Shown: in pieces, positions 1 through 64,000 of the stretch
How the letters are laid out: each line of letters opens with the position of its first letter
Position numbering within the stretch: position 1 is the first letter of the stretch
IMG/VR virus record: IMGVR_UViG_3300029711_000003
Span: 36,538-100,537 of that record
DNA: 64,000 nucleotides
Source: a virus
Strand: one strand, 5' to 3'
Position numbers and translations under genes: made by a program
The notes under the pieces: model-generated
Seen by the model: only the letters and a program-made list of their open reading frames with translations
Databases searched by the model: none
What the model was told of the DNA's origin: nothing

Positions 1-165
1 AACATCATTGATTTTGGAGAAGATTTTGATGTTAATAATATAACAGTTGAAAACTGGAAGAAAGTATTTTCATCTTGGAAAGTAAACATAAACGTATTTG
101 CTTACTTTCTGAAAAGGTCACAAATACTTTCTACTTATGTAAACAAACTAACATCTGAAAAGTAG
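1..165 (+). CDS. C-terminal fragment of an upstream virion-module gene (partial; start outside window)
   Basis: Frame 1 is open from base 1 to TAG 163-165 (...YVNKLTSEK*). The stop sits 1 nt before the next ATG, the same tight packing as the following baseplate genes. Confidence 0.45.
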   Translation, partial: NIIDFGEDFDVNNITVENWKKVFSSWKVNINVFAYFLKRSQILSTYVNKLTSEK

Positions 166-166
166 T

Positions 167-1057
167 ATGGAAGGAAAGTTTGAAATAAACAGGGGTGGTA
201 ACAACGCCATAGGACAGTCAGGTATCGGTTTTATCGTAGTTCCTGACGATAATACAAGGCAACAATATATTGATGATTGCTATCGTACATCTACGGTAAC
301 AATCAATGGAGGTTTTGGTTATGGTTACATAAGTGCTGTTAAGATTTTGCCTGACGTTCTTCAAAAAATACGCTTTCCGCTAAAAAGCACGGAGAGAGGA
401 ACGCCAGTGTTATGGTTGAGGGAAAATTTCTCAAACCGTCCCATTGTTATTGGTATAATAAGTGAAGAAGGTTACACAAACCTTTTGAAAGAAAATCAAA
501 ACCGATTTGTTCAGGAAATAGACGGAAAAACGGTTGAGATTTTTCAAGATGCTAATTCGGCTACACTAAACATAAATGTTGTAGGAAAATCTGATACTCC
601 AGCTAATATCAATATCAAGGTTGCTTCTGGTTCAGAAGATAGCGTTGTTAACATAGATAGCGATGGCAAGGTAAATGTTTCCGCTAATGATTTCACAGCA
701 ACAGCAAGAAATACTTTTAATATATTTTTGAAGGACGGAAAGAATGATGAGCTAATTTCTTTGATTGGCGATTCAGAAAAGATGGAATTCAAAGATAAAT
801 TTGGTAATGTAATAACTTCTAATGAAGAAAATGTTAACATTACCGTTGCTGGAAAGTTCAATGTAAACAGCGGTAAAGAGCCGATGGTGCTTGGACAAAC
901 TCTTGTAGATTTGTTGAGCGAAATATTGGATGCTATTAAGCAGATAACGGTAGTCACGCCTGTCGGTACTTCTTCTGTTCCTGTTAATATAGCATCATTT
1001 ACTTCTGCTCAGCAAAAATTGAAAAATATATTAAGTACAATTTCTAATTTAGATTGA
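167..1057 (+). CDS. baseplate hub / central spike-like protein (gpV, gp5, Mu gp45-like)
   Basis: 296 aa. OB-like N-part: GTPVLWLRENFSNRPIVIG resembles the G..V.V.F..GD...P.V.G hub motif. Repetitive beta-rich middle (NINIKVASGSEDSVVNIDSDGKVNVSAN). Lies directly upstream of the gp25-like and J-like genes. Motif and synteny only. Confidence 0.45.
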   Translation: MEGKFEINRGGNNAIGQSGIGFIVVPDDNTRQQYIDDCYRTSTVTINGGFGYGYISAVKILPDVLQKIRFPLKSTERGTPVLWLRENFSNRPIVIGIISEEGYTNLLKENQNRFVQEIDGKTVEIFQDANSATLNINVVGKSDTPANINIKVASGSEDSVVNIDSDGKVNVSANDFTATARNTFNIFLKDGKNDELISLIGDSEKMEFKDKFGNVITSNEENVNITVAGKFNVNSGKEPMVLGQTLVDLLSEILDAIKQITVVTPVGTSSVPVNIASFTSAQQKLKNILSTISNLD

Positions 1058-1058
1058 T

Positions 1059-1325
1059 ATGCCAATAGCAACTGAAGCATTAAGAGCGTTTTTGACTCAG
1101 GGAATAAAAAATGCGCTTGACCAACCAATTGATGAAACTTCTAATTCAGACGAAGTTAAACAAAGATTTGCACAAAACATTGCTAATGCAATAGCAGATG
1201 GAGTTGACGCTTGGATTAAGACCGCTACTGTTACTGTACAGCCAGGAATACCAGTATCAACAGCAGGTGGGCCATCAGCTCAAACTGGAGCTACAACTGG
1301 TCAGGGAACTGGTACAATATCGTGA
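1059..1325 (+). CDS. hypothetical small virion-module protein
   Basis: 88 aa. ATG 1 nt after the previous stop. Gly/Thr-rich tail TAGGPSAQTGATTGQGTGT. Confidence 0.5.
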   Translation: MPIATEALRAFLTQGIKNALDQPIDETSNSDEVKQRFAQNIANAIADGVDAWIKTATVTVQPGIPVSTAGGPSAQTGATTGQGTGTIS

Positions 1326-1357
1326 ACAAACAGTTATAATTCATAGAAAAGAATAAT

Positions 1358-2092: not shown

Positions 2093-2993
2093 TGATATTG
2101 TAAGTGACTTTGAAAATATAACCAAGTTTGCCTTGTTAGACTACTTGGAACAATATAGGGATTTCATGCAAAATGATTTCTCCTATATTTCTTCATATTA
2201 CAACGGAGATACGGCAAGTGTTGATTCATCTTATATTTCCAATTTCAATTCTTTGAGGACTAAGAGCAAAACACTGATGCAGCAGTTCATAAACTTTTCT
2301 CACCGATTATCGAATTGCGGTTTTTGGGAGCTTCAGGAGTATTGTCAAGACCTTAATGATACTTTGGAAAAGATAACCAAATTGCCTAAGTATTACAGAA
2401 CATCTAAGACGGTAAGAGGTTATCAGCCGTATATACAAGTCAAGGGAAACATTGGCGGTATGAAAACCGTTAAGGATTTAGCCGAAGAAATAAGTTCCAA
2501 TGGTGTTAGCGAAATAAGTCTTATCATTGATAATGACCTTCAGGAGAAAGATTGGGAAATTGACCAATTGTCTGCCGTTACTGCCTTTGTAAATAATCAG
2601 GTGGACGTAGTAGTTGAAACAATTCTTGAACAGCCTGTAGGCAATCAAATTTATGGTAAGGATATTGCTCGCAAGATAACACTGGAAGACAATGATATTG
2701 CCGTTAAGAAATATGAAGACAACGTTGAACAAAAATGTGATATTCTATTAGAGCTTGAGCGTGGTAACATTCCTGAAATGCCTGCGTTTGGTAAAAATCC
2801 GCTTCAAGGTACCAATATGGCTAATTACAATTATGCTGAATTGGTAAAGGACTTGCAGAGCGTATTTCTTCAGGATGATTTGTTTGAATCAATAGAAGTT
2901 ACAAACGTTGAATTCAAAGATGGCGACTTGTATGTCACTTGTTCTATTCAAACCAAGTATTCGTATTCAACTGTAAAAACATTAAGATTATGA
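2085..2993 (+). CDS. baseplate wedge protein with gp25/GPW-like C-terminal domain
   Basis: 302 aa. The C-terminus LELERGNIPEMPAFGKNPLQG...LFESIEVTNVEFKDGDLYVTCSIQTKY fits the gp25/GPW pattern (P.FG ... I.V ... L.V...I). ATGA overlap with the J-like gene. Confidence 0.55.
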   Translation: MFSDIVSDFENITKFALLDYLEQYRDFMQNDFSYISSYYNGDTASVDSSYISNFNSLRTKSKTLMQQFINFSHRLSNCGFWELQEYCQDLNDTLEKITKLPKYYRTSKTVRGYQPYIQVKGNIGGMKTVKDLAEEISSNGVSEISLIIDNDLQEKDWEIDQLSAVTAFVNNQVDVVVETILEQPVGNQIYGKDIARKITLEDNDIAVKKYEDNVEQKCDILLELERGNIPEMPAFGKNPLQGTNMANYNYAELVKDLQSVFLQDDLFESIEVTNVEFKDGDLYVTCSIQTKYSYSTVKTLRL

Positions 2994-4186
2994 TAACGAA
3001 AATAACATCAGTAGATGAATTGAAGCAAATATGGTTGGAGATATTTCTCAACAAAACCGATAAGGTGAGTGACGTTTCGGATGAGTCAGTTTTGAACGGT
3101 ATTGCATACGGATGCGGAAAACTTGCTCAAAGAACATTGGCTAATCAAGCTATCATTGAAGGTCATATCTTTCCTGATACTGCTTATGGAGATTATCTTG
3201 ACCAGTTAGCTGCTATTCGTGGCGTAGCTCCGAGATTTGGTGCAACGGCAAGCTCAACTTATGTTAGAGTGATTGCTGATGCTGGAACGTCTTATTTAGC
3301 AGGAACACATCAGTTTACTTCTACTTCGGGAATTGTATTTGTACCCGAAAAGAGCGTGACGGTTGGTGAAAATGGATATGCTTATGTTAAGGTAAGAAGT
3401 TTGCAGAGCGGATTGTCTGCTAATGTAGATGCACTTTCCATAAACCAAGTGTCTCCAATTCCTGAGGGTCATATAAATTGTACAAATGAGTATGCTGCAA
3501 CTGGAGGTCGTGACCAAGAAGATGATGAACTGTTCCGACAGAGGATAAAAGAAAGTATAAATCAATTGTCAAGAACAACGCTGTCTTATCTTGAGCAAGT
3601 TTTCATGAAAATCAATAACAATGTTTTAAGGCTGTTCAAAGGTAGTACGGACGAAAGCGGACGTTTGAATTTGATTGTAGTTTCAGTAAACGGACAAGAT
3701 TTCACGGAAGATGAGTTCAATGAAATTCTCAGCCGTTCTGAAGAATATCTTTCTTTGTCCGAGCTTTTGAGAACTTCTACAGATTATGCTTTGAAGCTCA
3801 ATAATGTTGACTGGCTTACAGTTGACGTTGAGTTCCGAGTAGATTTTGACCCTGCTTATGACCAAGACGAAATTCGCAAGAACATACAGATTCAAATGTC
3901 AAAACTTTTTGACTATCGTTTTTGGCAATATGGTGATAAGGTAGAATGGGAAAATTTGTTGTATGCCGCTAAGAATGTTGAGGGTGTTAGATACGTGCCT
4001 GATACACACTTTTCTCCGCACGCTGATATAAATGTACCGAAATATCAATTGCCACGCATTAGAGGATTTGTATTGAGAGATTTGGATGGCAATATCATAG
4101 AAGACAATGGCGGCGTATTGAGTGAGTTCTATTATCCCAATGAGCCTGATGATTCATTTTCAAGTTCTGTTTTAATGACTATTTGA
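2990..4186 (+). CDS. baseplate J-like protein (P2 gpJ / T4 gp6 family)
   Basis: Start moved to ATG 2990 (ATGA overlap with the previous stop); the track start 2939 lies inside the previous gene. Carries the signature ATGGRDQEDDELFRQRI (GG.D.E.DE.LR.R of Baseplate_J). Follows the gp25-like gene. Confidence 0.7.
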   Translation: MITKITSVDELKQIWLEIFLNKTDKVSDVSDESVLNGIAYGCGKLAQRTLANQAIIEGHIFPDTAYGDYLDQLAAIRGVAPRFGATASSTYVRVIADAGTSYLAGTHQFTSTSGIVFVPEKSVTVGENGYAYVKVRSLQSGLSANVDALSINQVSPIPEGHINCTNEYAATGGRDQEDDELFRQRIKESINQLSRTTLSYLEQVFMKINNNVLRLFKGSTDESGRLNLIVVSVNGQDFTEDEFNEILSRSEEYLSLSELLRTSTDYALKLNNVDWLTVDVEFRVDFDPAYDQDEIRKNIQIQMSKLFDYRFWQYGDKVEWENLLYAAKNVEGVRYVPDTHFSPHADINVPKYQLPRIRGFVLRDLDGNIIEDNGGVLSEFYYPNEPDDSFSSSVLMTI

Positions 4187-21816: not shown

Positions 21817-23016
21817 ATGGAAAATATTGATTTCAAAAATGTGTTTATTCCGCCACTTGGCGTAATTTCAACTTCACAATTCAGTGAGATGTATCCTGTG
21901 GTTAATGACTATATTCTCAATGAAATGAAGTTTGAGGATAGCAGGGATGGAAAGGTAAAGGAAATGCTTGATATTAAAACAATGTTAAGCAATCCGTATC
22001 GTAGATGCGTAGGCGGTTATCGAAGAAACATAAATGTGTTCTTTTTGCTTGCTGAAGCTATGTGGATTGTTTTAGGCAGGAAAGATGTTGAGACATTAGT
22101 CAATTTCAATAACAATATGAAAAACTTTTCCGATGATGGTGAAACATTTCACGCTCCTTATGGTTTTCGTTTGCGCCATTGGGGTATAAGGACAGAGGAT
22201 AAGTTTGAGGAAGGAGTTAATACTGCTCAAGGTTCAGACCAAGTTTTGAATGCTATCAAACTTTTGACGGAAAATCCTAACACCCGTCAAGTTGTTATGT
22301 CTATTTGGAATCCAAACTTTGATTTAGGATTCAAAACAAAAGACATACCTTGTAATGATATGGTGATGTTAAAGATAAGGAACGGAAAGCTGATAACAAC
22401 GGTTCAAAATCGTAGCAACGACTTGCATTGGGGTTTGCCTACGAACATATTCCAGTTCTCATTCCTCACCGAAGTTATGGCGGCTTGTTTAGGTATAGAG
22501 CTTGGCACTCAAACTCATAATTCTCAGAGCCTACATATATATGAGTGGAATGATGTTGCTAATGTTATGGATGAAGAATATAAGAAAATCGGAAACGGTT
22601 TTGATTTGTATCATTGGGCTCATGAGAAGCATATGGATTTCAACTTCAATCACGAAGTTCCTGCTAACCGTTTCCGTGAGATTGAATACAATTTTTCGGT
22701 TATTATCGAAAATCTGAATAAAGTTGCTAAGGGAGAGAGTGAGAACAACGATGAAATCCAAGCATTAGCAATGTTTTCTAATTATCTGTATAACTCTTAT
22801 CTGTTATTGAAGATTTATTTGGATTACAAGCATGATATTAAGTCTGCTAAGACGGATGAGGAAAAGGATGTTGCCCGTTTGAAGGCAATTTCAGATATTG
22901 AATTGATAGAAATTGAGAACAAGTTACAAGGATGGGACATTTCAGTTCTTGCTAAGAATTTCTTTGCCGCAAGGTTACACAATAAGGTAGAACATGAATA
23001 CATTGGTAAGTTATGA
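21817..23016 (+). CDS. ThyA-family pyrimidine C5 transferase (thymidylate synthase or dUMP hydroxymethylase) with ~130-aa C-terminal extension
   Basis: 399 aa. MSIWNP. Catalytic Cys in DIPCNDM (PCH in canonical ThyA). NRSNDLHWGLPTNIFQF corresponds to RSxDxxLGxPFN with the Asn retained. SLHIY. Confidence 0.7.
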   Translation: MENIDFKNVFIPPLGVISTSQFSEMYPVVNDYILNEMKFEDSRDGKVKEMLDIKTMLSNPYRRCVGGYRRNINVFFLLAEAMWIVLGRKDVETLVNFNNNMKNFSDDGETFHAPYGFRLRHWGIRTEDKFEEGVNTAQGSDQVLNAIKLLTENPNTRQVVMSIWNPNFDLGFKTKDIPCNDMVMLKIRNGKLITTVQNRSNDLHWGLPTNIFQFSFLTEVMAACLGIELGTQTHNSQSLHIYEWNDVANVMDEEYKKIGNGFDLYHWAHEKHMDFNFNHEVPANRFREIEYNFSVIIENLNKVAKGESENNDEIQALAMFSNYLYNSYLLLKIYLDYKHDIKSAKTDEEKDVARLKAISDIELIEIENKLQGWDISVLAKNFFAARLHNKVEHEYIGKL

Positions 23017-26000
23017 CAAAAAGTCTATCTGAATGGATTGAAAACAACAAACTTTCGGTATCGGAGTCAAAAATCAATGACTCCGATATTGTAAGTATTG
23101 AAGGTGTTGGAACATTCCTTTATGTACATCCGTTTGACGGTAAGATAATTGATGAAGATTTTGCTTTCATATTATCGGATGAAGAGTTTGATTTGCTTGA
23201 TGAAAAGAAAGTAGATTACATATTGTTTGAGTTCGGTAAGAAATTCTATTATTCCAGTCCTAAACAATCGAAGAACAGATACAACGAAATCATTTACAAA
23301 CCTGAGTTCAATGATTTCAAGTATTTGGGTACAACGAAAGAAACAACAGAAGATATATTTCCATTTGTTCACCTTGGAGTTCATTCCGAGTATGAAATGT
23401 TGAATGGTTCGGGAGCCTGTGAGTTGTGGGCTAAGAAAGCTGCCTTTATGAAAGTTAAGGCTTTGGGCATATGTGATAAAAATACTATGGCTGGAGTTCT
23501 TTCATTTCAGACCGCTTGTGAAAAGAAAGGGGTGAAGTCAATAATAGGTGAAACCGTAACTGTAGCAATAGATTATTCCGAAGAAAAACAAAACCAAGAA
23601 ACATTTGAATTAAAGCTATATGTTTTGAATTATGAGGGGTGGAAAAATCTGTTGCTTATCAATAAAGCTATAAATGTTGACTATGATGGTTTTATTCCTG
23701 ATACGTTACTTTATACGCTGGGAAAGGGCTTATGCTGCGTAGTGCCCAAAGAGAGTGAATTCAACTACATTAAGGATGATAAGGTGAAAGTGTTAAAACT
23801 TATAGCCAAATACAAAAAGACGTTTGACCAAGTCTATTATCAAATTGATACGGTTGAATATACTTCTCAACAATTATTCCGTAAGCACTTGGAAAACATT
23901 GATACTTATATAATGAAATACAAAAGGTTCATCAAGCCTATCTTAATCAATGATTCATATTATCTTGATGCCGAAGAAGGTGGATTGAAATCTTTGTTGA
24001 ATAAGGTATCGGGAAAGGCTGCGCCTGAATCAAACAATCAATTCTTCAAGAGCTTTATGGATACCTTGGAATCATATAAGGAATGGGGAGAGGTATCGGA
24101 GCTATGGGACATTATTTTATCAGGAAGACATTATGCTGAAAAGCTCACAGATAAAATTGATTTCCGCATAAATACTGGAGAACGTAAGTTGCCTCATTTT
24201 GAGGTTAAGGATGTTGAAGGACTGTTCTTTCAGGAGCTTGAACGTGGAATAAACGAGCGTTTGGGAGATTTGCCTCCAAAGAAGATGAAAGAATATCTCA
24301 AGCAGATAGAAACCGAGTGCGCTGTTATAGTTCCTAATGGTTTGTGCGATTATTTTATGATACTTTGGGACATCATAAAGTGGTGTCATGATAATGATAT
24401 AAACACTGGTCCAGGACGTGGTTCAGTTTGCGGTAGTCTTATAGCGTACTGTTTACATATAACAGACGTTGACCCATTGAAGTATGGATTGATGTTTGAG
24501 CGTTTCTTGAATGAAACACGTGTATCGGGAGAGCGAGCGAAAAGTGCGGACAGTATGCCTGATATAGATGTTGATTTTCCAACAGAGTTCCGTGATGCTG
24601 TTAAAGAGTACATCAAAGAAAAGTATGGTTATGCTTACACTTGTAGTATTGGTACATATACGAGAATGAAGCTCAAAACTTGTATCAAGGACTTCGGAAA
24701 GGTTAAGGGATTGTCATTTGATTTGACAAATAAATTGACTAAGGATATAGATGACCAAATAGAATACACTTGGGGAGATTTGATTGAATATGCAAGCAAG
24801 TCGAAACTTCTTTTCAAGTTTGTTCAGGAAAATCCTGAATTGGTTCATATGACCAAATATGCACTTCTTCAGCCGAAAGCTGAAAGCGTACACCCGTCAG
24901 CCGTTATTATCGTACCTAAACATGCTGTGGACGGTACGAACAGAGAAATGGACTTGTGGGAGTGGATGCCTGTAAAGAAAATTGATGGTGTATTGGTATC
25001 TGAATGGGAAGGAAAGTACATTGATAAGTCAGGTTTTTTGAAAGAGGATATTCTTGGACTTTCTCAGCTTGATAAGTTTAAGAGTATTTTGAAACTTATT
25101 GAAAATAATTGTCACAAGAAAATAGATGTTAACAAGATACCGCTGGACGATGAAGCGACATTCCGATATTTCAAACGTGGTTGGAATGAAGATGTATTTC
25201 AGTTCGGTACGACTGGGTTGATGAATTATTGTCGTCAAGTTAAGCCTGATAGTTTGGAAAACCTTATAGCCATGACTGCTTTGTTCAGACCTGGACCCAT
25301 GGAGCTTAATGCGCATCAAGACTTTGCTGATATTAAGAACGGAAAGAAGAAACCTGTGTATGACTTTGGTATGGAAGATATAACCAAAGAAACTTATGGA
25401 CTTTATGTGTATCAAGAGCAGGTTATGCAAGCCGTAGTTGTCGGAGGTTTGACGAAGGTTGAATCAGACGTTCTCCGTACTACGATTAAGAAGAAGGATG
25501 TGAAAACACTGGCTTCATTTGGCGATAAGTTTAAGGATGGATATGCTAAACTTTTGTCAAAGAATGGTATCAAAAATCCTGAAGAGTATGCTAATCACGT
25601 ATGGTATAAGCTGCTTGCCTTTTCAGGGTATGGTTTTAACAAATCACACGCTGCCGCTTATTCTATAATGTCTTATTGGAGCCAATGGTTTAAGGTTAAT
25701 TATCCGTTGGAATTTTGGACAACTGCTCTTCAATTCTCCAAAGAGGGAGAAGTGCCATACCGTTTAGCTGAGTTGAAAAAGACAGGAGCTGAAATTGAGA
25801 TACGTCCACCTGATGTTAATTTCTCCGATATAAATTTCACTTGCGATGCGAAAGAACAGCGCATCTTCTTCAGCCTGACGAAAATTAAGGGAGTAGGAGA
25901 AGTGGCGGTGAAGAATATAATGGATACAAGGCACGCAGGTGGGCAGTTCTATTCGTTGGAAGAGTTCCTCAGCCGAGTACCCAGTAAGGTAAACAAAACT

Positions 26001-26564
26001 GTTGTAAAATGCTTAATAGTAGCTGGAGCGTTTGACCTGATAGAAGGTGTTAACAATCCGAGAGATAGAAAGAAGCTGCTGGAGAAGTATTTGGAAAGCA
26101 AGAATGAAAGTTTACCAGAAGAATACTCAGGAGCGGATAGCAATTCCAACGCATTTTGGATTTTGGAACAAAAACGTCTTACTGGGTTTGGAGAAGTAGA
26201 TTATGAAACCATGATACGTGATGCCATTCCTAACAAGCGTTTGTCTAAGTTGTATGTCAATGATAGCGAGTTCCTTGATACTAAGGAAAAAACGGAAGTT
26301 GTTATTGCCGGCAAACTTATATTCTATCGTGAGCGTGATATTAAGAACGGAAAGGTGTGTACTATTCAGATAGACTGTAATAATACTATTTTGAACGCCA
26401 TTCTTTGGCCAGACGCATACGAGAAGATTGATGAGGATATAGCTAATTTGAAGGGTTGTATCGTAGCTTTGAGCGGTACGGTTGAAAAAGACCGATATAG
26501 GAATGAAAAAAACTTGTATAGTAACAATAAAACAAAGTTATATGTTATATCAGAATCAAAATAA
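23013..26564 (+). CDS. dnaE: DNA polymerase III alpha subunit (DnaE-type replicase)
   Basis: 1183 aa. PHP N-terminus (HLGVHSEYEMLNGSG), GRGSVCGSLIAYCLHITDVDP, PDIDVDF, FRPGPM, GYGFNKSHAAAYS. Confidence 0.9.
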   Translation: MTKSLSEWIENNKLSVSESKINDSDIVSIEGVGTFLYVHPFDGKIIDEDFAFILSDEEFDLLDEKKVDYILFEFGKKFYYSSPKQSKNRYNEIIYKPEFNDFKYLGTTKETTEDIFPFVHLGVHSEYEMLNGSGACELWAKKAAFMKVKALGICDKNTMAGVLSFQTACEKKGVKSIIGETVTVAIDYSEEKQNQETFELKLYVLNYEGWKNLLLINKAINVDYDGFIPDTLLYTLGKGLCCVVPKESEFNYIKDDKVKVLKLIAKYKKTFDQVYYQIDTVEYTSQQLFRKHLENIDTYIMKYKRFIKPILINDSYYLDAEEGGLKSLLNKVSGKAAPESNNQFFKSFMDTLESYKEWGEVSELWDIILSGRHYAEKLTDKIDFRINTGERKLPHFEVKDVEGLFFQELERGINERLGDLPPKKMKEYLKQIETECAVIVPNGLCDYFMILWDIIKWCHDNDINTGPGRGSVCGSLIAYCLHITDVDPLKYGLMFERFLNETRVSGERAKSADSMPDIDVDFPTEFRDAVKEYIKEKYGYAYTCSIGTYTRMKLKTCIKDFGKVKGLSFDLTNKLTKDIDDQIEYTWGDLIEYASKSKLLFKFVQENPELVHMTKYALLQPKAESVHPSAVIIVPKHAVDGTNREMDLWEWMPVKKIDGVLVSEWEGKYIDKSGFLKEDILGLSQLDKFKSILKLIENNCHKKIDVNKIPLDDEATFRYFKRGWNEDVFQFGTTGLMNYCRQVKPDSLENLIAMTALFRPGPMELNAHQDFADIKNGKKKPVYDFGMEDITKETYGLYVYQEQVMQAVVVGGLTKVESDVLRTTIKKKDVKTLASFGDKFKDGYAKLLSKNGIKNPEEYANHVWYKLLAFSGYGFNKSHAAAYSIMSYWSQWFKVNYPLEFWTTALQFSKEGEVPYRLAELKKTGAEIEIRPPDVNFSDINFTCDAKEQRIFFSLTKIKGVGEVAVKNIMDTRHAGGQFYSLEEFLSRVPSKVNKTVVKCLIVAGAFDLIEGVNNPRDRKKLLEKYLESKNESLPEEYSGADSNSNAFWILEQKRLTGFGEVDYETMIRDAIPNKRLSKLYVNDSEFLDTKEKTEVVIAGKLIFYRERDIKNGKVCTIQIDCNNTILNAILWPDAYEKIDEDIANLKGCIVALSGTVEKDRYRNEKNLYSNNKTKLYVISESK

Positions 26565-35397: not shown

Positions 35398-35424
35398 CAT
35401 AGTTTACTTTGAAAAAGAATAATT

Positions 35425-46783: not shown

Positions 46784-47105
46784 TATAACAGCAGCTAGTT
46801 ATAATGGTTTAGGAATAGTTGGGAGAAGGATAATCACTGAACAATTCCCAAACCGAAAGGAAGCAATGAAATATTTGTGCAAAAATTACTATCATATCAA
46901 AATAAACAAAATAACGGAAATGAAAAATTACATTGTTAAATTCTTTGGAAGTAAGAATAGACGTGAACAAATCAAACAAGTTAAAAACATGATTGTACAA
47001 GCCTCAAGAGCTACGGAAGTTGAAGACATCTTGAGACACAAGTATGGATATGAAGTTATCAACGGTTTGAAAATAAGAGAATGTGAGCAAAATGAGAATG
47101 AATGA
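46764..47105 (+). CDS. hypothetical protein
   Basis: 113 aa. Confidence 0.45.
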   Translation: MKSFVIDITAASYNGLGIVGRRIITEQFPNRKEAMKYLCKNYYHIKINKITEMKNYIVKFFGSKNRREQIKQVKNMIVQASRATEVEDILRHKYGYEVINGLKIRECEQNENE

Positions 47106-53056: not shown

Positions 53057-55840
53057 ATGTTTGATTTAGATACAATAGAACAAAAAGATAAGAAGCTGGT
53101 AAGCATTCTTCAGTCGCCAACTCATCAATTGGAATGTCTTTCAATAGTTGACGAGATAATTGATAGCATGGATGACAAAGGCATACTTGAACTAATGTCT
53201 GGTTCGGACGGAGATTTGGACTATATTTTAGATTGTATGTTGAAGGATACATTCCAAGTAATGTACACTGGCAATCCTCATATTGATTTTGCTCCGAGAT
53301 ATACTGATAGGTTATCTCAAGCAGTAGAAGAAATATTGAGGTGCAAGAATTTGACATACTTCATTACTTCGGTAATGCCCGATTTTCAGTTGTCTTGGCA
53401 TCATTTGGAATGGGGAGATTTGGTTCACCGATATAAAAAGTTGTGCATAGAAGCTGCCCGTGACCACGGCAAGTGCGAAGCAGTTGGAACAAAGGTAAGA
53501 ATGTATGACGGCTCCATTAAGAAAGTTGAAGATTTGATAATTGGAGATTTGCTAATGGGAGTTGATTCAAAGCCAAGAAAGATTATTCATCTTCATAGAG
53601 GCGTTGATGACAATATGTTTAGAATTGACCAAAGTAAAGGTGATAGTTATACAGTCAATTCTAAACATATTTGTACCGTCATTAAAATAGGTAAGAGAGG
53701 AAAGAATTTGACAGAACACGAAAAGAATATTGTTGATATTGACATTCCAACTCTTTTATCTTATTCAAAGAACTTTCTTTCAGAACGCATACGTGGTTTT
53801 AAGGTCGCTTGGGAAGCTCCTGAAAGAAAAGTATTGATTGAACCTTATTTCTTGGGGTATTGGTTAGGCGATGGAAATTCAAATAATCAAAAAATAACTA
53901 TTGAAGATGTAGAGGTTGTTCGGTATTTAGAAGAATATGCTGAAAGACTTGGTATGACAACTTCAAGAAAAGGATTGTTGTCTAACATTAGGAGAAAAAT
54001 AATATCTTGTAAAACCAAAAACAAGTTAAACATGTTTTTGAAAGCATATAACTTGATATATAACAAACATATTCCTAATGTTTACATACATAATTCAAGA
54101 AAAGTTCGTTTGGAATTGTTAGCTGGACTTTTAGATTCAGATGGAGATTTATGGTGCAATGGTTATCATTTTGGCAATATAAATAAAAGATTGGTTGAGG
54201 ATGTAAAAAATCTTGCTGATAGTTTGGGTTTCAGAACTTATATGTCAGGCGGTAGAAAGTACCATAAACAACTGAAGAGAATGTATGATTGGTGGGGAGT
54301 TTCTATTTCAGGAAAGATTGATGAAATACCTGTAAAAATACCAAGAAAAAAGATTGAATATAATTGGGGAAATAAGGCTTCAAATAAAGATTGGGGAGTC
54401 ATAGATGGAATAGCACCAAGTGTCGTGTCTTCTATAAAAATAACAAATGTTGGTAAAGGAGAATATGTTTCAATTACCACTGATGGAGACCATAGATTTT
54501 TGCTTGCTGATGGTACAGTTACTCATAATTCTTACTATTTCTCCAATGCTTATGCCGCTTGGCAATTGTATAAGTATGCTAAGCCGAAGGGTACTCAATT
54601 TTCAGCAAGACCTACAAAGTCAAATTCAAACCGTGGATATTTGTTCAGTTTCTCTTTGCAACAATCCGTTGACCTTATGGAGATATTGAAAAACACGATT
54701 GAAAGTAATGATATATTGAAAGAACGTCTGTACCCTGATTCCAAAGATAAGAGCGGAGCGTGGGCAAGTACGAATATAGTATGTAAGAACGGAGCGAGAT
54801 TGACGTGTAAGGGATTTGGGTCATCAGTACGTGGTGCTCACCCATATTGGATAGTAGTAGATGATGGATTGAAAGATAACGTCATCTACAGTCAATTACA
54901 GAGGCAGAAAAGCATTGATTATTTCCATTCGGTAATTATGAACATGCTTGTACCAGGTGGTCAAATAATTGTAGTTGGCACTCCTTTCCATGCTTCAGAC
55001 TTATACGGAGATTTGAAAAGCAAAAGCATACATGCTACTGGTAATAAGAAAGGATGGTTTGTAATTGAATATCCTGCTATCTTTCCTGACGGTCGCATTC
55101 TTTGGCCACAACGTTGGAGTTTCTTTGACCTTATGGACAAGAAAGCTACGCAAGGAAACATCATTTTCAGTAGGGAAAATCTTTGTCGTCCAATCACCAA
55201 TGAAAGTTCTATCTTTCCGCTCAAGGTTTTGGAGCGTTCTTTGGTACGTATGGAGAATTATGTTCTTGTTCGCAATAGGGATGACTTTCCGATTAAGTTC
55301 AACAAAGTTGTCGTTGGATGTGACTTTGCTATTTCTGCAAATGTTGGTACAGACTACACTGTGTTTACGGTTTGGGGAGTTGACGATGAAACTGGAGAGC
55401 GTTGGTTGTTGCATTTCTATCGGGATAAAGGAAAGACGTTTCACGAGCAGATGCAAGTATTGAAAGGCATAAATGTGAGATTCAGACCTGATACAATGAT
55501 TTTGGAACAAAACACGTTCCAACAGATATTCGTACAAGAAAGTGATAAACAGGGGCTGCCAGTTATAGGACATACCACTGGTATAGATAAGTATGATTTG
55601 AAGACAGGCTGGCCTGGACTTGCCATAGATTTTGAACGTGGCAAAATACATATACCGATTGGAGATAAGTATTCACAAGACGTGAAAGACCTTATTTTCT
55701 CAGACCTTGGTTCGGTAGCATTTACCGATAAGGGATTGGAGAGCGTAGGAGAACACGATGATATCAGTTCTTCTTTCTGGCTTGCTAAGTTAGGAGCTAA
55801 CTTGATTACCACAGGATTCAAGTACACTTTCCTGGGTTAA
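53057..55840 (+). CDS. terL: terminase large subunit, interrupted by an intein
   Basis: 927 aa. SD AGGAGG at 53048-53053. Walker A is split as AARDHGK|intein|S. Walker B WIVVDDGL. Coupling motif VVGTPFH. Nuclease Asp motifs VVGCDFAIS and EHDDISSSFWLA. Confidence 0.85.
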   Translation: MFDLDTIEQKDKKLVSILQSPTHQLECLSIVDEIIDSMDDKGILELMSGSDGDLDYILDCMLKDTFQVMYTGNPHIDFAPRYTDRLSQAVEEILRCKNLTYFITSVMPDFQLSWHHLEWGDLVHRYKKLCIEAARDHGKCEAVGTKVRMYDGSIKKVEDLIIGDLLMGVDSKPRKIIHLHRGVDDNMFRIDQSKGDSYTVNSKHICTVIKIGKRGKNLTEHEKNIVDIDIPTLLSYSKNFLSERIRGFKVAWEAPERKVLIEPYFLGYWLGDGNSNNQKITIEDVEVVRYLEEYAERLGMTTSRKGLLSNIRRKIISCKTKNKLNMFLKAYNLIYNKHIPNVYIHNSRKVRLELLAGLLDSDGDLWCNGYHFGNINKRLVEDVKNLADSLGFRTYMSGGRKYHKQLKRMYDWWGVSISGKIDEIPVKIPRKKIEYNWGNKASNKDWGVIDGIAPSVVSSIKITNVGKGEYVSITTDGDHRFLLADGTVTHNSYYFSNAYAAWQLYKYAKPKGTQFSARPTKSNSNRGYLFSFSLQQSVDLMEILKNTIESNDILKERLYPDSKDKSGAWASTNIVCKNGARLTCKGFGSSVRGAHPYWIVVDDGLKDNVIYSQLQRQKSIDYFHSVIMNMLVPGGQIIVVGTPFHASDLYGDLKSKSIHATGNKKGWFVIEYPAIFPDGRILWPQRWSFFDLMDKKATQGNIIFSRENLCRPITNESSIFPLKVLERSLVRMENYVLVRNRDDFPIKFNKVVVGCDFAISANVGTDYTVFTVWGVDDETGERWLLHFYRDKGKTFHEQMQVLKGINVRFRPDTMILEQNTFQQIFVQESDKQGLPVIGHTTGIDKYDLKTGWPGLAIDFERGKIHIPIGDKYSQDVKDLIFSDLGSVAFTDKGLESVGEHDDISSSFWLAKLGANLITTGFKYTFLG
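53474..54529 (+). mobile_element. intein with LAGLIDADG homing-endonuclease domain (352 aa) in the TerL P-loop
   Basis: Begins CEAVGTKVRMYDGSIKKVEDLIIGD (block A Cys1). LAGLIDADG motifs LGYWLGDGNS and LLAGLLDSDGD. Ends GTVTHN, followed by the +1 Ser (SYYFS). Confidence 0.85.
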
Positions 55841-59912: not shown

Positions 59913-60530
59913 ATGGCAACAAAACCATCATGGCTAACAACCAACCCTGCTACTGGCGGCAGCGGTAATGGAGCCATTCAAAACAGCGCCAGTGAACACA
60001 CAGGTCGTGTGGCAAGAACGGGAACGGTTACTGTAACCGCAACTGGGTTATCAACTCCTAAGACTTACAAAGTCACTCAAACTCCGAAGGCTGAATTTGT
60101 CAGCTTTGATAATGGAGCTGAAATGGCAGCTGGTAAGTCAGGCGGAGCGTTGACAATCCAAGGTAAGAGTAACTCAGCCAAACTTACTTTCTCTTGGGTA
60201 GGTGACGTTGACGATGTTGATATTCCAGAGTCATATCAAGCAAATGGCACTCCTACTAATAATGGAGATGCGATTGAAGGTGACCCTGGTGCTCAAAATG
60301 AGTATGCTTTCTCTATTCAATTGACGCTGCCTGAAAACGAAACGGTTGATGAAGTTGTAAGAACATTGCTTGTAACGGCAGACGGAGCTCAAACGGCTCA
60401 AATTGCTATCAAGCAGGCTGCTGGTGACCCGACGCTTGAAATTGAGCCTACTGAAATCACCATTCCGCAGGCTGGTACTCCTGCCGTATCTGTACAGGTT
60501 ACTTCTAACACAACTTGGACAATATCGTAA
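59913..60530 (+). CDS. BACON/Ig-like repeat protein (C-terminal half-domain + full domain + N-terminal half-domain)
   Basis: 205 aa. Starts PSWLTTNPATGGSGNGAIQ...RTGTVTVTATGLSTPKTYKVTQ. Ends LEIEPTEITIPQAGTPAVSVQVTSNTTWTIS*. Confidence 0.6.
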   Translation: MATKPSWLTTNPATGGSGNGAIQNSASEHTGRVARTGTVTVTATGLSTPKTYKVTQTPKAEFVSFDNGAEMAAGKSGGALTIQGKSNSAKLTFSWVGDVDDVDIPESYQANGTPTNNGDAIEGDPGAQNEYAFSIQLTLPENETVDEVVRTLLVTADGAQTAQIAIKQAAGDPTLEIEPTEITIPQAGTPAVSVQVTSNTTWTIS

Positions 60531-61843: not shown

Positions 61844-62611
61844 ATGATAGGCATAATATACAAATTCACTATCTTGACCAGTTTGAAGTATTTTGGTCAC
61901 AAACCATTCTACGTTGGACAATTTTCTCGCAATGTTTCAATGGAACAATTTTTGAGAAATGATTGTTTTGTTTATGACGGTAGCGGTAAGACTTGGGAAA
62001 GATTTTATGAAGGACTAAGAAGAAAGTTTCCAACTTGCTGGAGAAAGTTAATCAAAAGAGAAATATTGTTTTATTCAAATAATTGCTCTCAAAAAGTTCT
62101 TGACGCTATGGAAGCGTATTACATCAAGAAAGAGAAAGCGCATTATTCATACAAGTTAGGAGGCTGTAATATATTATGGGGCACCGCTAATAAGTTCGGT
62201 TCAGGAAGCCCAATGAAAGACCCAATGGTTGCTAAGAAGGTTACTGATAAGATAAAAGGAAGAAAGGGTGCTAAGCGTTCTGCTATTGGAAGAATGAATA
62301 TGTCAATAGCTGCAAAGAAGTCTTGGAAAAATGCAGAAAGCAGAAGAAAGAAAGTTTCAAATGCTATATCTGAATATATGAGAAATGGTGGAGCAAAGAA
62401 ATTATCGAATGAAAGAAAAGGCAAAAAATTTTCTATTGAAACGAGAATGAAAATATCAAAAAATCATGCTGATTTCAAAGCTTCAAAACATCCGTTATTC
62501 GGTGTTAAGTATGACTGGATAAATAATGGTGTAATCAACAAAAGGTTAAACAAAGGTGATAAAATGCCAGCAGGGTTTATTTATGGTAGAATTAAAAGAA
62601 AGAAAATATGA
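61844..62611 (+). CDS. GIY-YIG homing endonuclease with NUMOD3-like repeats (Seg/I-TevI-like)
   Basis: 255 aa. GIIYKFT...PFYVGQ (GIY-YIG). Conserved Glu in LDAMEAYYI, Asn in GGCNILWG. Repeated basic DNA-binding motifs (GSPMKDPMVAKKVTDKIKGRKG, FSIETRMKISKNH). Confidence 0.7.
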   Translation: MIGIIYKFTILTSLKYFGHKPFYVGQFSRNVSMEQFLRNDCFVYDGSGKTWERFYEGLRRKFPTCWRKLIKREILFYSNNCSQKVLDAMEAYYIKKEKAHYSYKLGGCNILWGTANKFGSGSPMKDPMVAKKVTDKIKGRKGAKRSAIGRMNMSIAAKKSWKNAESRRKKVSNAISEYMRNGGAKKLSNERKGKKFSIETRMKISKNHADFKASKHPLFGVKYDWINNGVINKRLNKGDKMPAGFIYGRIKRKKI

Positions 62612-63582
62612 ATATATTGATAGATGGTAACTACGCATACCATAAAGCGTTTTCAGTATTTTCAACATATTATAAGGGTCAAGATTTAGAAGAAGTAATG
62701 TCTGACCCTGAAAAGCAACAAGTTCTTATAAGAAAATGTATAATAGATATTTGTTCAGCAATTCGTAGATTTAATAATGTTGAAAGAGTAGCGGTTGTTA
62801 TAGATAGTCATTCGTGGCGTTACAATTTCTACGATGACTATAAGTACGCACTTACAAGAGTCAGAGACCCATATTACAAGCATTTCCTGACCGTTTTAGA
62901 TATGTTTGAAGCCTTACTAAGGAAGAAGGGTTTGATAGTCAGTAGAGTCATGGGAGCAGAGGGTGATGATTTGCTTTATGTTTGGGCATTGTACTTCGGT
63001 TATTGTTTAGATGAAGAGTTGGTCATCATCACGGGTGATTCAGATATTCGTCAAATCATGACTAAGAACGTAGCGTTGTTTAACAACAACTCAAAGAATT
63101 TGAAGATGTATTGCACTCCTGAAAGGGAAGTATTTTGGAATGAATATCTTGAAACCGATGTTCAGGTAATAGCTACGAAACCATTTGAGGTATTGTTATA
63201 CAAAGTCATCATGGGTGATACGTCTGATAACATACCGAAGTTGAAGTCAGGTTTTGGACCAAAGGCATTTGAGAAATTCATTGATTTCATTTCTCCTTAT
63301 GACGAGCCGAAGAATGTTGAGCTTGTAGAAATGGCTCAATGGATTGCTTCACGTTTCTCTGATTTCACAAAGATGAAGTATGAGGATGTTTTAGGAAAGG
63401 TTTTATTCAACCTGAAGATGACTTGGCTCAACCTTTCAGTGTATAACAATACCGATTATCGGACTAAGAACGGCAAGAGCCTTCTTGAGAATATGCTTGA
63501 CGATGTTAACAACCAAAAGGATAATTACAGTTATAAAGGTGAATATACATTGGAAAGTTTTTACGGCATGATAATTAAATAG
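62608..63582 (+). CDS. 5-prime to 3-prime exonuclease / flap endonuclease (T4 RNase H-like)
   Basis: 324 aa. GAEGDDLLY, ITGDSDIRQI, VIMGDTSDNIPKL. Confidence 0.8.
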   Translation: MNILIDGNYAYHKAFSVFSTYYKGQDLEEVMSDPEKQQVLIRKCIIDICSAIRRFNNVERVAVVIDSHSWRYNFYDDYKYALTRVRDPYYKHFLTVLDMFEALLRKKGLIVSRVMGAEGDDLLYVWALYFGYCLDEELVIITGDSDIRQIMTKNVALFNNNSKNLKMYCTPEREVFWNEYLETDVQVIATKPFEVLLYKVIMGDTSDNIPKLKSGFGPKAFEKFIDFISPYDEPKNVELVEMAQWIASRFSDFTKMKYEDVLGKVLFNLKMTWLNLSVYNNTDYRTKNGKSLLENMLDDVNNQKDNYSYKGEYTLESFYGMIIK

Positions 63583-63590
63583 CATGAATT

Positions 63591-63776
63591 ATGAAAAGAA
63601 AGATTATCTTTATTGCAATCATTGTTGTGATAGTCATAGCAATATTGCTGTTTGCTCACTACGCTCCAGTTTGGGTTTCAATAACTAATTTGGTAGCGTT
63701 GGCTGTCGGTGTTGTTTTAGGTTGGATTGCTAATGTAGCATACAACAAGTTCGTAAAAGGAAAAACGGAGGAATGA
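63591..63776 (+). CDS. small membrane protein (2 TM)
   Basis: 61 aa. IIFIAIIVVIVIAILLF and LVALAVGVVLGWIANV. Confidence 0.5.
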   Translation: MKRKIIFIAIIVVIVIAILLFAHYAPVWVSITNLVALAVGVVLGWIANVAYNKFVKGKTEE

Positions 63777-63778
63777 GT

Positions 63779-64000
63779 ATGAACGACATTGAGAAAGCAA
63801 TTAAGGATGCCCGAGCAGCTCAGGTAGGTCGCATCTACGGAACATTTCAGAATGCTAAGGAAGTAACCGTTGATGAGAATGGAATTCAAAAAGCTGATGA
63901 CGGAGAGGTTGAAAAATCTGACATCATGAACGCTTTGTCTTATCAGGGTGAAATCAAGGTATCGAAAACTGGTAAGGAAATTAAACAGCAAGTTGACGAT
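63779..64000 (+). CDS. hypothetical protein (partial; runs off the window end)
   Basis: ATG 63779, 2 nt after the previous TGA. Open for 74 codons to base 64000 (MNDIEKAIKDARAAQVGRIYGTF...). Absent from the track because no stop falls in the window. Confidence 0.5.
   Translation, partial: MNDIEKAIKDARAAQVGRIYGTFQNAKEVTVDENGIQKADDGEVEKSDIMNALSYQGEIKVSKTGKEIKQQVDD

What the first reader, a model, noticed from the sequence alone, without database searches (positions are those of the whole stretch)
1..64000. Apparent complete absence of GATC across 64 kb
Seen: reading the whole window and checking every GAT and every 10-mer block boundary, I found no GATC tetranucleotide. Related strings are abundant (GATATC, GATTC, GATG, GATA, ATCGAT). 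My rough, uncomputed base-composition estimate is that on the order of a hundred or more sites would be expected. Codon choice supports selection: Asp is usually GAT, but before a codon starting with C it is written GAC (e.g. gac-cct at 3848, gac-cga at 18121, gac-caa at 23826, gac-cct at 38446). Ile ATC is never preceded by G. Other 4-bp palindromes are present (GGCC, CCGG, GCGC, TCGA, GTAC, CTAG). Established: total avoidance of one short palindrome in a phage is the classical signature of counter-selection by a restriction system recognising that site. GATC is the target of the MboI/DpnII/Sau3AI types and, when methylated, of DpnI-like enzymes. Inference: the host population carries GATC-directed restriction, and this phage evades it by site elimination. 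That would be independent of, or redundant with, any base modification (see the ThyA-family finding).
Basis: seen in the sequence. Interest (0 to 1): 0.62.

Follow-up and report, generated by a model that had tools for sequence, protein, structure and literature searches.

The report
Gut phage purged of restriction sites
This 100-kb uncultured phage, probably of gut Bacteroidales, has silently rewritten its genes so that GATC and about twenty other restriction-enzyme target words are almost gone, which is a clean but classical way for a phage to escape bacterial DNA-cutting defences.

Summary
GATC occurs 0 times in the 64-kb window, against 165-208 expected. It occurs once in the complete ~100.4-kb phage genome, against 233 expected from synonymous-codon shuffles.

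GATC is not alone. CTAG (2/118), CGCG (5/68), CCGG (8/96), GGCC (17/90) and TCGA (71/243) are also purged, as are about 12 six-base palindromes. Other palindromes (AGCT, ACGT, GTAC, ATAT) are at expectation.

- **How the sites are removed.** Removal is by synonymous codon choice in all three frames.
- **Phage genes.** The phage has no DNA methyltransferase of the three main Pfam families (D12 Dam-like, N6/N4, C5). It has no DpnII-, MutH- or DpnI-family nuclease.
- **Relatives.** Among 62 relatives the GATC-avoiding state switches at least 10 times. Whole-genome counts are 1/233 here, 225/304 and 286/312 in two relatives, and 0/223 in the nearest one. That nearest relative additionally purges AGCT and ACGT.
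- **Candidate hosts.** The five most purged 4-mers are exactly the five 4-bp palindromes methylated in Bacteroides fragilis-group isolates. DpnII-, MjaI- and HpaII-type enzymes each occur in 6-8% of 201 sampled Bacteroidales species.

Verdict: this is restriction-site avoidance, a known phenomenon. This scan has already reported it in at least 13 other genomes.

One extra: some asymmetric words are purged on one strand only (CTTAG 0/47 against CTAAG 157). This resembles T7's evasion of type III enzymes.

The parts
1..64000 (.). GATC-free stretch. It is the larger part of a ~100.4-kb phage genome that holds one GATC in all, at genome position 36448, 89 bp upstream of the window.
46795..46798. 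The only CTAG in the window (88-152 expected in the window by the Markov models). The genome has 2 against 118 expected.
3848..3853 (+). Example of context-dependent codon choice: Asp written GAC before CCT, in frame in ORF 2939-4186.
   Evidence: genome-wide statistics
23826..23831 (+). Example GAC-CAA inside the DnaE-type DNA polymerase gene.
23013..26564 (+). DnaE-type DNA polymerase (1183 aa). Used as the marker to collect 74 related loci and build the family tree.
21817..23016 (+). ThyA-fold gene (Pfam Thymidylat_synt, 92 bits), a possible thymine-modification enzyme. It is conserved next to the polymerase in 63 of 74 relatives regardless of avoidance pattern.
59913..60530 (+). ORF with a BACON domain (PF13004, 30.8 bits, cut-off 25), a Bacteroidota-associated domain. 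This is one of the host clues.

Best explanation
This is the genome of an uncultured, apparently virulent ~100-kb phage whose hosts are most likely gut Bacteroidales. Its lineage has been selected to lose the recognition sequences of the restriction enzymes it meets. Any mutation that creates GATC exposes incoming unmethylated DNA to cutting and is removed by selection. The same applies to CTAG, CGCG, CCGG, GGCC, NTCGAN palindromes, AAGCTT, CTTAAG, GTATAC, CTATAG, TTTAAA, CGWCG and others. All these words can be avoided by synonymous codons, so the proteins are unaffected.

Site loss protects in three situations at once. It works against enzymes that cut unmethylated GATC (DpnII/MboI type). 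It works against enzymes indifferent to adenine methylation (Sau3AI type). It works against enzymes that cut only methylated GATC (DpnI type), which matters in a host group where GATC methylation varies from strain to strain.

Shown here: the depletion, its synonymous mechanism, its lineage specificity, the absence of phage methyltransferases of the three main families, and the presence of cognate enzyme families in Bacteroidales. Inferred: the identity of the host, and that its enzymes are the selective agent.
For: **Depletion is specific to restriction-type words**
- Five of the six most depleted of all 256 tetramers are palindromes. AGCT, ACGT, GTAC and ATAT are at 0.92-0.99 of expectation.

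**Mechanism**
- Asp GAT/GAC before C is 1/171. ATC after G is 0/412. TCN after xGA is 0/48.
- TGACC is over-represented, 167 against 56, as the footprint of replaced sites.

**Orthologue comparison**
- Of 135 and 172 GATC sites in the genes of relatives G005 and G012, none is kept here.
- Where the residues are identical, this phage has GACC, GATT or GATA.

**Lineage specificity**
- Whole-genome GATC is 1/233 (G000), 1/254, 0/223, 225/304 and 286/312.
- On a polymerase tree of 62 relatives the avoiding state changes at least 10 times for GATC, 6 for CTAG, 4 for CCGG, 5 for CGCG, 4 for GGCC and 4 for GCGC.
- The nearest relative (88% polymerase identity) also purges AGCT (29/301) and ACGT (17/192), which are untouched here.

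**No self-protection by methylation**
- G000 has no D12, N6_N4 or C5 methyltransferase.
- Only 3 of 33 relatives have any of these.

**Host side**
- The nearest cultured phages all infect Bacteroidota.
- A BACON domain is present.
- A relative's 97-kb contig is binned in a Bacteroidales MAG.
- In 201 species genomes of that order, the DpnII family has 12 strong hits (15 in all), Sau3AI-like or MutH 3, DpnI 2, MjaI (CTAG) 16 and HpaII (CCGG) 14.
- DpnII genes sit in methylase-nuclease operons.

**Independent methylome catalogue**
- The catalogue covers the B. fragilis group (PMC10333322, Suppl. Data 11 and suppl. tables).
- Its 4-bp palindromic methylated motifs are GATC, CTAG, CGCG, GGCC and CCGG. 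These are exactly the five most purged here (1 in 4368 by chance).
- Six-base catalogue palindromes have median O/E 0.21 against 0.54 for the rest (p=0.036).
- GATC 6mA is the commonest methylated motif in gut phages (PMC10711547). GATC methylation is strain-variable in Bacteroides (PMC4101878 and PMC10333322).
Against: - The host is not identified. Binning of a phage contig in a MAG is weak evidence, and no CRISPR-spacer or culture link was obtained.
- The five purged 4-mers are also among the commonest restriction specificities in bacteria generally. The 5/5 match does not single out the B. fragilis group.
- CTAG is under-represented in many genomes for other reasons. Here, however, relatives with normal CTAG (188/185) argue for specific selection.
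- Pfam nuclease families do not prove specificity.
- A putative thymine modification (ThyA-like gene) might have been expected to make avoidance of T-containing sites unnecessary.
- No experiment shows that restriction is the agent.
Confidence: 0.85

Rival explanations
1. The main driver for GATC is methylation-dependent restriction (DpnI-like, type IIM/IV). The phage is methylated by orphan or prophage Dam-type enzymes in one strain and then cut in the next, so only site loss helps.
For: - GATC methylation is strain-variable and often prophage-borne in Bacteroides (PMC4101878 and PMC10333322).
- DpnI-family genes with the DpnI_C domain exist in the order (2 of 201).
- Rusinov et al. note that GATC is avoided in all 46 phages whose hosts encode such enzymes (PMC6286503).
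Against: - DpnII-type systems are about six times commoner in the same sample (12 against 2).
- The co-purged words (CCGG, CGCG, GGCC, AAGCTT and others) are classical type II targets.
- This is a sub-variant of the same explanation rather than a true alternative.
Confidence: 0.07
2. GATC is counter-selected by Dam-directed mismatch repair (MutH nicking of unmethylated GATC), as proposed for enterobacteriophages, and not by restriction.
For: There is a historical precedent in coliphages (McClelland 1985; Deschavanne and Radman 1991; from my own knowledge). D12-class methylases are present in Bacteroides (control line).
Against: - The MutH family is found in only 3 of 201 genomes of the candidate host order. 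Two of those have the double-domain Sau3AI-like layout.
- The purge is complete rather than partial.
- It is accompanied by many non-GATC palindromes, which MutH cannot explain.
- It switches on and off among close relatives.
Confidence: 0.02
3. The phage encodes its own GATC-specific nuclease to destroy host DNA and has purged the site to spare itself.
For: None direct. The logic parallels T4, which distinguishes its own DNA from host DNA. Many ORFs in this genome are unannotated.
Against: - No DpnII-, MutH/Sau3AI- or DpnI-family match at E<=1 in G000 or in four relatives.
- It would need about 20 different nucleases to explain the whole list.
- Relatives with the same gene order keep GATC.
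Confidence: 0.02
4. Generic compositional or mutational bias, or an assembly artefact.
For: Several words are depleted at once, and the genome has strong strand skew (A 34%, C 15%).
Against: - Nulls that keep dinucleotides, trinucleotides, or the protein sequence plus codon usage all expect 165-233 sites.
- Single-base neighbours of the purged words are normal.
- Relatives of similar G+C content (37-39%) keep 225-286 sites.
- The same genes in relatives carry GATC where this phage has synonymous alternatives.
Confidence: 0.01

Closest known systems
Recognition-site avoidance as an anti-restriction strategy of virulent dsDNA phages (Rusinov et al. 2018, PMC6286503)
   Same: Near-complete elimination of orthodox type II palindromic sites, most marked in non-temperate dsDNA phages. 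[quoted passage not shown]
   Different: The host here is uncultured and unknown. The list is unusually long (5 four-base, about 12 six-base and several degenerate words). Turnover of the list is documented across 62 relatives.
Staphylococcus phage K and Sau3AI: a >100-kb lytic phage genome with no GATC (O'Flaherty et al. 2004; from my own knowledge, not re-checked here)
   Same: Total loss of GATC from a large virulent phage genome, attributed to a GATC-cutting host enzyme.
   Different: Different phage family and host phylum. Here GATC is one of many purged words.
Phage T7 and EcoP15I: all 36 CAGCAG sites in one orientation (Meisel et al. 1992; reviewed in PMC3874151). Strand-biased depletion of type III and MANTIS sites in Pseudomonas phages (bioRxiv 10.64898/2026.09.23.753747)
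   Same: In this phage CTAAG occurs 157 times on one strand and 0 on the other (47 expected). AAGACC is 32 against 0 (16 expected). CGAG is 166 against 9 (90 expected).
   Different: No cognate enzyme is known. The whole genome is transcribed in one direction, so an RNA-level cause is not excluded. Overall enrichment of Bacteroides asymmetric methylation motifs among one-strand-purged words is not significant (p=0.24).
GATC counter-selection in enterobacteriophages by Dam/MutH mismatch repair (Deschavanne and Radman 1991; from my own knowledge)
   Same: GATC is under-represented in a phage genome.
   Different: The MutH family is rare in the candidate host order (3 of 201). The purge here is complete and includes many other palindromes.
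Self-methylation by phage-borne methyltransferases (for example the multispecific C5 methylases of Bacillus phages SPR and phi3T; from my own knowledge)
   Same: One relative (G012) carries a 479-aa C5 methylase. It is the lineage in which CCGG (285/185), CGCG (215/150) and GCGC (161/129) are not avoided.
   Different: The phage of this window has no such gene and relies on site loss.

Membership tests
Restriction-site avoidance (anti-restriction by site elimination) | The site count is far below an expectation that preserves composition, coding sequence and codon usage. | tested here: met
   GATC is 0 against 165-208 in the window and 1 against 233.5 +/- 11.3 in the genome.
Restriction-site avoidance (anti-restriction by site elimination) | The depleted words are restriction-type words (short palindromes), not arbitrary words of the same composition. 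| tested here: met
   Five of the six most depleted tetramers are palindromes. AGCT, ACGT, GTAC and ATAT are at expectation. The five most purged 4-mers equal the five 4-bp palindromes methylated in the B. fragilis group.
Restriction-site avoidance (anti-restriction by site elimination) | Removal is by silent changes, in every reading frame. | tested here: met
   Codon-context counts. By frame, GATC is expected 126/45/64 and observed 1/0/0. Orthologue comparison.
Restriction-site avoidance (anti-restriction by site elimination) | The pattern differs between related phages, as expected if host enzymes rather than phage biology set it. | tested here: met
   At least 10 state changes for GATC on the tree.
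Restriction-site avoidance (anti-restriction by site elimination) | The host encodes enzymes that recognise the avoided sites. | tested here: inconclusive
   The host is unknown. In 201 Bacteroidales species genomes, DpnII has 12-15 hits, MjaI 16, HpaII 14, Sau3AI-like or MutH 3 and DpnI 2. Operon context is confirmed.
Restriction-site avoidance (anti-restriction by site elimination) | Phage DNA escapes restriction in vivo or in vitro, and adding sites restores sensitivity. | not testable with these tools
   This needs a cultured host and phage.
Dam/MutH-driven GATC counter-selection | The host has a MutH-type GATC nicking enzyme coupled to Dam. | tested here: not met
   The MutH family is in 3 of 201 genomes of the candidate host order, two with a Sau3AI-like double domain. 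The host itself is unknown, so this is not absolute.
Orientation bias against type III-like enzymes (T7/EcoP15I type) | An asymmetric motif is present many times but in one orientation only. | tested here: met
   CTAAG is 157 on one strand and 0 on the other, where 47 are expected. AAGACC is 32 and 0 (16 expected). Single-base neighbours of CTTAG are normal.
Orientation bias against type III-like enzymes (T7/EcoP15I type) | A host enzyme with that specificity needs inverted site pairs. | tested here: inconclusive
   AAGACC (6mA), GAACC, CGACC and CCAGA are methylated motifs in B. fragilis-group isolates, but the enzyme types were not determined. There is no significant overall enrichment.

The most novel reading that the evidence does not exclude
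Besides ordinary palindrome avoidance, this phage lineage has purged several asymmetric words from one strand only. CTTAG is 0 against 47 expected while CTAAG is 157. GGTCTT is 0 against 16 while AAGACC is 32. CTCG is 9 against 90 while CGAG is 166. If this reflects orientation-dependent defences (type III, type ISP or MANTIS-like) in gut Bacteroidales, each phage's full 'avoidance barcode' is a negative image of its host strains' restriction repertoire. That barcode holds about 20 words and changes quickly between relatives. It could then be used to assign uncultured gut phages to hosts and to predict unknown enzyme specificities.
Probability: 0.4. Interest if true: 0.5.

Novelty: new member of a known kind. 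Interest (0 to 1): 0.28.

Why it matters
Restriction-site avoidance is textbook biology, and this scan has already met it in at least 13 other genomes, several of them gut Bacteroidales phages. The practical value here is as data.
- This phage family gives a well-resolved series of about 100-kb genomes in which individual restriction words are purged or tolerated independently. That makes it a natural experiment on how fast phages track host restriction repertoires.
- The match between the purged set and the published Bacteroides methylome supports a Bacteroidales host. It also suggests that avoidance profiles can help link uncultured phages to hosts.
- For anyone trying to culture or engineer this phage, the list tells which restriction systems it is already immune to.

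Tried and rejected
- **Megablast against cultured phages.** An 8-kb piece found nothing. There is no close cultured relative, and the best protein matches are 31-35% identical.
- **Whole-record GATC counts.** I fetched four whole relatives instead.
- **'Relatives' and 'of' for a virus record.** I used the Bacteroidales MAG that holds a relative's contig as the centre instead.
- **Do GATC-keeping relatives protect themselves with a Dam-type methylase?** Rejected. Only 2 of 33 relatives have a D12 methylase, and both still avoid GATC.
- **A phage-encoded GATC nuclease.** No match.
Not present here (CT 0.96 of expectation).
- **Enrichment of Bacteroides asymmetric methylation motifs among one-strand-purged 5-mers.** Not significant (3 of 28 against 27 of 463, p=0.24). 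Only individual matches stand.
- **The crAss002 paper's 'GATC' hits** are the name of a sequencing company.
- **The lone GATC is not a conserved functional site.** The nearest relative has GAA-AGA there, and another relative's single GATC lies elsewhere.
- **Not attempted.** A CRISPR-spacer search for the host, because the collection scans need a fixed pattern.


Full report
**1. The observation**

An exact two-strand search finds no GATC in the 64,000-base window. Dinucleotide-preserving shuffles expect 208 +/- 12. Base composition expects 206 and a second-order Markov model 165.

The window is the last 64 kb of a 100,537-bp contig whose ends overlap by 99 bp. The contig is therefore a circularly assembled genome of about 100,438 bp. 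IMG/VR classes it as having direct terminal repeats, and CheckV estimates it 100% complete.

The whole genome holds one GATC, at genome position 36448, 89 bp before the window. Shuffling synonymous codons within each gene keeps every protein and each gene's codon usage. That null expects 233.5 +/- 11.3 sites, and none of 200 shuffles fell below 205.

- Asp before a C-starting codon is GAT once and GAC 171 times, against 73-74% GAT in other contexts.
- Ile ATC never follows a G-ending codon (0 of 412).
- After a codon ending in GA, Ser is never TCN (0, against 48 AGY).

All three reading frames are therefore purged (expected 126/45/64, observed 1/0/0). Three of the four quoted examples are at the stated coordinates and the fourth is two bases off.

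**2. GATC is not alone**

Under the codon-shuffle null, several four-base palindromes are depleted in the genome:

| Word | Observed | Expected |
|---|---|---|
| CTAG | 2 | 118 |
| CGCG | 5 | 68 |
| CCGG | 8 | 96 |
| GGCC | 17 | 89 |
| TCGA | 71 | 243 |

AGCT, ACGT, GTAC and ATAT sit at 0.92-0.99 of expectation. Five of the six most depleted of all 256 tetramers are palindromes.

Twelve six-base palindromes that contain none of those cores are at or below 0.17 of expectation:

| Word | Observed | Expected |
|---|---|---|
| CTATAG | 0 | 28 |
| CTTAAG | 0 | 30 |
| TTCGAA | 0 | 30 |
| GTATAC | 0 | 20 |
| AGCGCT | 0 | 14 |
| CGTACG | 0 | 8 |
| AAGCTT | 3 | 54 |
| TTTAAA | 4 | 49 |
| TACGTA | 2 | 19 |
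| ATCGAT | 3 | 22 |
| ATGCAT | 3 | 20 |
| GGTACC | 2 | 12 |

The symmetric degenerate word CGWCG is 7 against 76. Two asymmetric words are low on both strands: CCTCG/CGAGG (1 against 14 and 6 against 49) and CTCGA/TCGAG (0 against 25 and 2 against 43). TGACC is three-fold over-represented (167 against 56), which is the footprint of GAT-C rewritten as GAC-C.

The statement in the note that other four-base palindromes 'are present' is literally true but misleading.

**3. What the genome is**

Nearly all genes lie on the + strand (92 kb of coding sequence on +, 2.5 kb on -). PHROG and Pfam matches in the window identify:
- a DnaE-type DNA polymerase
- DnaB-like and other helicases
- an SbcC-like protein
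- a large terminase
- a ribonucleotide reductase
- tail proteins
- a ThyA-fold enzyme
- a BACON-domain protein

No cultured phage is close at the DNA level. The best polymerase and terminase matches, at 31-37% identity, are all phages of Bacteroidota (Chryseobacterium, Cellulophaga, Tenacibaculum, Bacteroides) or uncultured human-faecal phages.

IMG/VR holds 74 related loci with 49-87% polymerase identity (plus one distant locus at 35%), many from contigs of about 100 kb. One relative's 97-kb contig is binned in a MAG titled 'uncultured Bacteroidales bacterium'. Together with the BACON domain, this points to Bacteroidales hosts. No direct host link was obtained.

**4. Why this is selection by restriction and not composition**

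(a) Relatives differ. In the ~20-kb loci around the polymerase, each palindrome is purged in some lineages and normal in others. On a maximum-likelihood polymerase tree of 62 relatives, the 'avoiding' state (O/E <= 0.15) changes at least 10 times for GATC. It changes 6 times for CTAG, 4 for CCGG, 5 for CGCG, 4 for GGCC and 4 for GCGC.

(b) Whole genomes of four relatives confirm it:

| Genome | Polymerase identity to G000 | GATC obs/exp | Other words (obs/exp) |
|---|---|---|---|
| G000 | - | 1/233 | AGCT 436/440; ACGT 297/314 |
| G004 | 83% | 1/254 | - |
| G001 | 87-88% | 0/223 | AGCT 29/301; ACGT 17/192 |
| G005 | 77% | 225/304 | CTAG 188/185; ACGT 4/234 |
| G012 | 72% | 286/312 | CTAG 0/118 |

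(c) Orthologous genes show the mechanism directly:
- Of 135 GATC sites in G005 genes and 172 in G012 genes that align to G000 orthologues, none is GATC in G000.
- Where the encoded residues are the same, G000 has GACC (24 and 30), GATT (10 and 11) or GATA (4 and 11).
- In the other direction, of 331 AGCT sites in G000 genes aligned to G001, only 4 remain AGCT in G001.

(d) The residual GATC is not conserved. G001 has GAA-AGA at that place, and G004's single GATC lies elsewhere. This is what mutation-selection balance predicts.

**5. The phage does not protect itself by methylation, and has no recognisable GATC nuclease**

Six-frame profile searches of G000 find no D12 (Dam-class), N6/N4 or C5 DNA methyltransferase, even at E <= 1.

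Among 33 relatives' records:
- Two have a D12 enzyme, and both still avoid GATC (1/57 and 0/70 in their loci). One of the two also has an N6/N4 enzyme.
- One has a C5 enzyme. That record, G012, is the lineage in which CCGG (285/185), CGCG (215/150) and GCGC (161/129) are not avoided. Its sister L012 has CCGG 0/66 and CGCG 0/22. This is a single but telling case of methylation replacing avoidance.

No DpnII-, MutH/Sau3AI- or DpnI-family gene is found in G000 or in four relatives. This removes support for the idea that the phage spares itself from its own nuclease.

**6. The candidate hosts have the matching enzymes**

I sampled 201 species-representative genomes of the order of the MAG that holds the relative's contig.

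| Enzyme family | Site | Genomes with hits (of 201) |
|---|---|---|
| DpnII | GATC | 12 strong full-length, 15 in all |
| MutH | GATC | 3, two with the Sau3AI-like double domain in 439-496-aa frames |
| DpnI | methylated GATC | 2 |
| MjaI | CTAG | 16 |
| HpaII | CCGG | 14, and also in the B. thetaiotaomicron control |

Two DpnII genes inspected lie in methylase-nuclease operons. One has the D12 methylase, DpnII and second-methylase layout known from pneumococcal DpnII.

The scarcity of MutH argues against the Dam/MutH explanation proposed for coliphages.

**7. Independent published data agree**

The methylome survey of Bacteroides fragilis-group isolates (PMC10333322) reports GATC and CTGCAG methylation in at least one isolate of all five species. 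It reports CGCG methylation in all P. distasonis isolates.

Its supplementary motif tables list, as four-base palindromes, exactly GATC, CTAG, CGCG, GGCC and CCGG. These are the five most purged four-base palindromes here (one chance in 4368).

The tables also list CTTAAG, GTATAC, AAGCTT, CTRYAG, MTCGAK, CTCGAG and CGWCG, all purged here. Six-base catalogue palindromes have a median O/E of 0.21 against 0.54 for the others (one-sided p = 0.036).

Further published points:
- GATC methylation is present in one B. dorei strain and absent in another, and is carried by a prophage (PMC4101878).
- GATC is the commonest 6mA motif among 22,673 gut phages, and GGCC and CTAG are among the common 4mC motifs (PMC10711547).

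Because methylation status varies between strains, loss of the site is the only state immune to all three classes of GATC enzyme (methylation-sensitive, methylation-indifferent and methylation-dependent). This last step is inference.

Caveat: these five words are common restriction targets in bacteria at large, so the match supports a Bacteroidales host but does not prove it.

**8. Relation to base modification**

The ThyA-fold gene next to the polymerase (Pfam Thymidylat_synt, 92 bits) is conserved in 63 of 74 relatives' loci, whatever their avoidance pattern. The remainder include loci cut off at that end.

Whatever modification it supports is therefore a constant of the family. The avoidance lists vary on top of it.

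**9. One-strand avoidance (outside the original finding)**

Some asymmetric words are purged from the + strand only:

| Purged word (+ strand) | Observed | Expected | Reverse complement | Observed | Expected |
|---|---|---|---|---|---|
| CTTAG | 0 | 47 | CTAAG | 157 | 130 |
| GGTCTT | 0 | 16 | AAGACC | 32 | 20 |
| CTCG | 9 | 90 | CGAG | 166 | 183 |
| GAACC | 14 | 57 | GGTTC | 87 | 72 |

Supporting details:
- Single-base neighbours of CTTAG are normal (CTTAC 79/72, CTTAT 157/156, TTTAG 98/99), and the CT dinucleotide is not depleted.
- The purge affects every available reading frame.
- It is shared by G001 and G004 but not by G005 or G012.
- In G005, ACTTAG/CTAAGT is absent from both strands (0/18 and 0/26), so the duplex motif is a DNA-level target in this family.

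A type II enzyme cannot explain one-strand purging. Enzymes that need inverted site pairs can. T7 escapes EcoP15I because all 36 of its sites point one way (PMC3874151). A 2026 preprint reports the same strand bias for type III and MANTIS sites in Pseudomonas phages. Rusinov et al. did not find it systematically.

AAGACC (6mA), GAACC, CGACC and CCAGA are methylated motifs in B. fragilis-group isolates. However, catalogue motifs are not significantly enriched among one-strand-purged 5-mers overall (p = 0.24). The whole genome is transcribed in one direction, so an RNA-level cause cannot be excluded. I rate the type III-like reading at about 0.4.

**10. Verdict**

The phenomenon is classical (PMC6286503; Staphylococcus phage K, from my own knowledge). 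This scan has already reported it in at least 13 other genomes, several from gut or rumen Bacteroidales phages.

It is a new member of a known kind. Interest is modest and lies in three things: the documented rapid turnover of the list within one phage family, the match to Bacteroides methylomes, and the orientation-specific purges.

Noticed in passing
whole window and genome, + strand: Several asymmetric words are purged from one strand only. CTTAG is 0 against 47 expected while CTAAG is 157. GGTCTT is 0 against 16 while AAGACC is 32. CTCG is 9 against 90 while CGAG is 166. GAACC is 14 against 57 while GGTTC is 87. The pattern is shared with relatives G001 and G004 but not G005 or G012. It resembles T7's one-orientation EcoP15I sites.
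   Followed up: partly
relative G012 (record of L039), G012:C1:18748-19806: This is the only one of 33 relatives with a C5 cytosine methyltransferase (479-aa frame). It is also the lineage where CCGG, CGCG and GCGC are not avoided and are even over-represented (285/185, 215/150, 161/129). Its sister L012 has CCGG 0/66.
   Followed up: partly
relatives G001 (L089-L093) and G005 (L094-L098): The nearest relative G001 has purged AGCT (29/301) and ACGT (17/192). G005 has purged ACGT (4/234) and ACTTAG/CTAAGT (0/18 and 0/26). All of these are untouched in this genome. Only 4 of 331 aligned AGCT sites survive in G001.
   Followed up: yes
window 53057-55840 (+): The large terminase ORF is 927 aa. Terminase profiles match two separate parts. 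Residues ~77-503 also match 'putative helicase' or hypothetical genes of Klebsiella and Bacteroides phages. This suggests an inserted or fused domain.
   Followed up: no
L039, L044, L047, L049, L051 and others (match spans of 4.4-5.3 kb against 3.5 kb here): The polymerase gene match is about 1-1.7 kb longer in many relatives. This suggests inteins or other insertions in the DnaE-type polymerase of those lineages.
   Followed up: no
L082:1261-2902 (-), a Bacteroidales genome: A DpnI-family gene (with DpnI_C), which cuts methylated GATC, lies directly next to a D12-class adenine methyltransferase. The pairing looks paradoxical unless the methylase has another specificity.
   Followed up: no
L037 and L038 (IMGVR_UViG_3300029572_000001, 199 kb): One 199-kb viral contig carries two different copies of the polymerase region (62% and 58% identity to the query, with different GATC content). 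It is probably two related phage genomes joined in assembly.
   Followed up: no
genome position 36448 (89 bp before the window), ORF 35143-36702: The single GATC of the genome is a GAT-CGC (Asp-Arg) pair in a 520-aa protein. It is not conserved: the nearest relative has GAA-AGA there.
   Followed up: yes
L076 (CALVSV010000163.1, 2.7 kb): A 2.7-kb contig encoding part of a related polymerase (58% identity) is binned in a MAG titled 'uncultured Bacilli bacterium'. This is most likely a binning accident and is not usable as host evidence.
   Followed up: no
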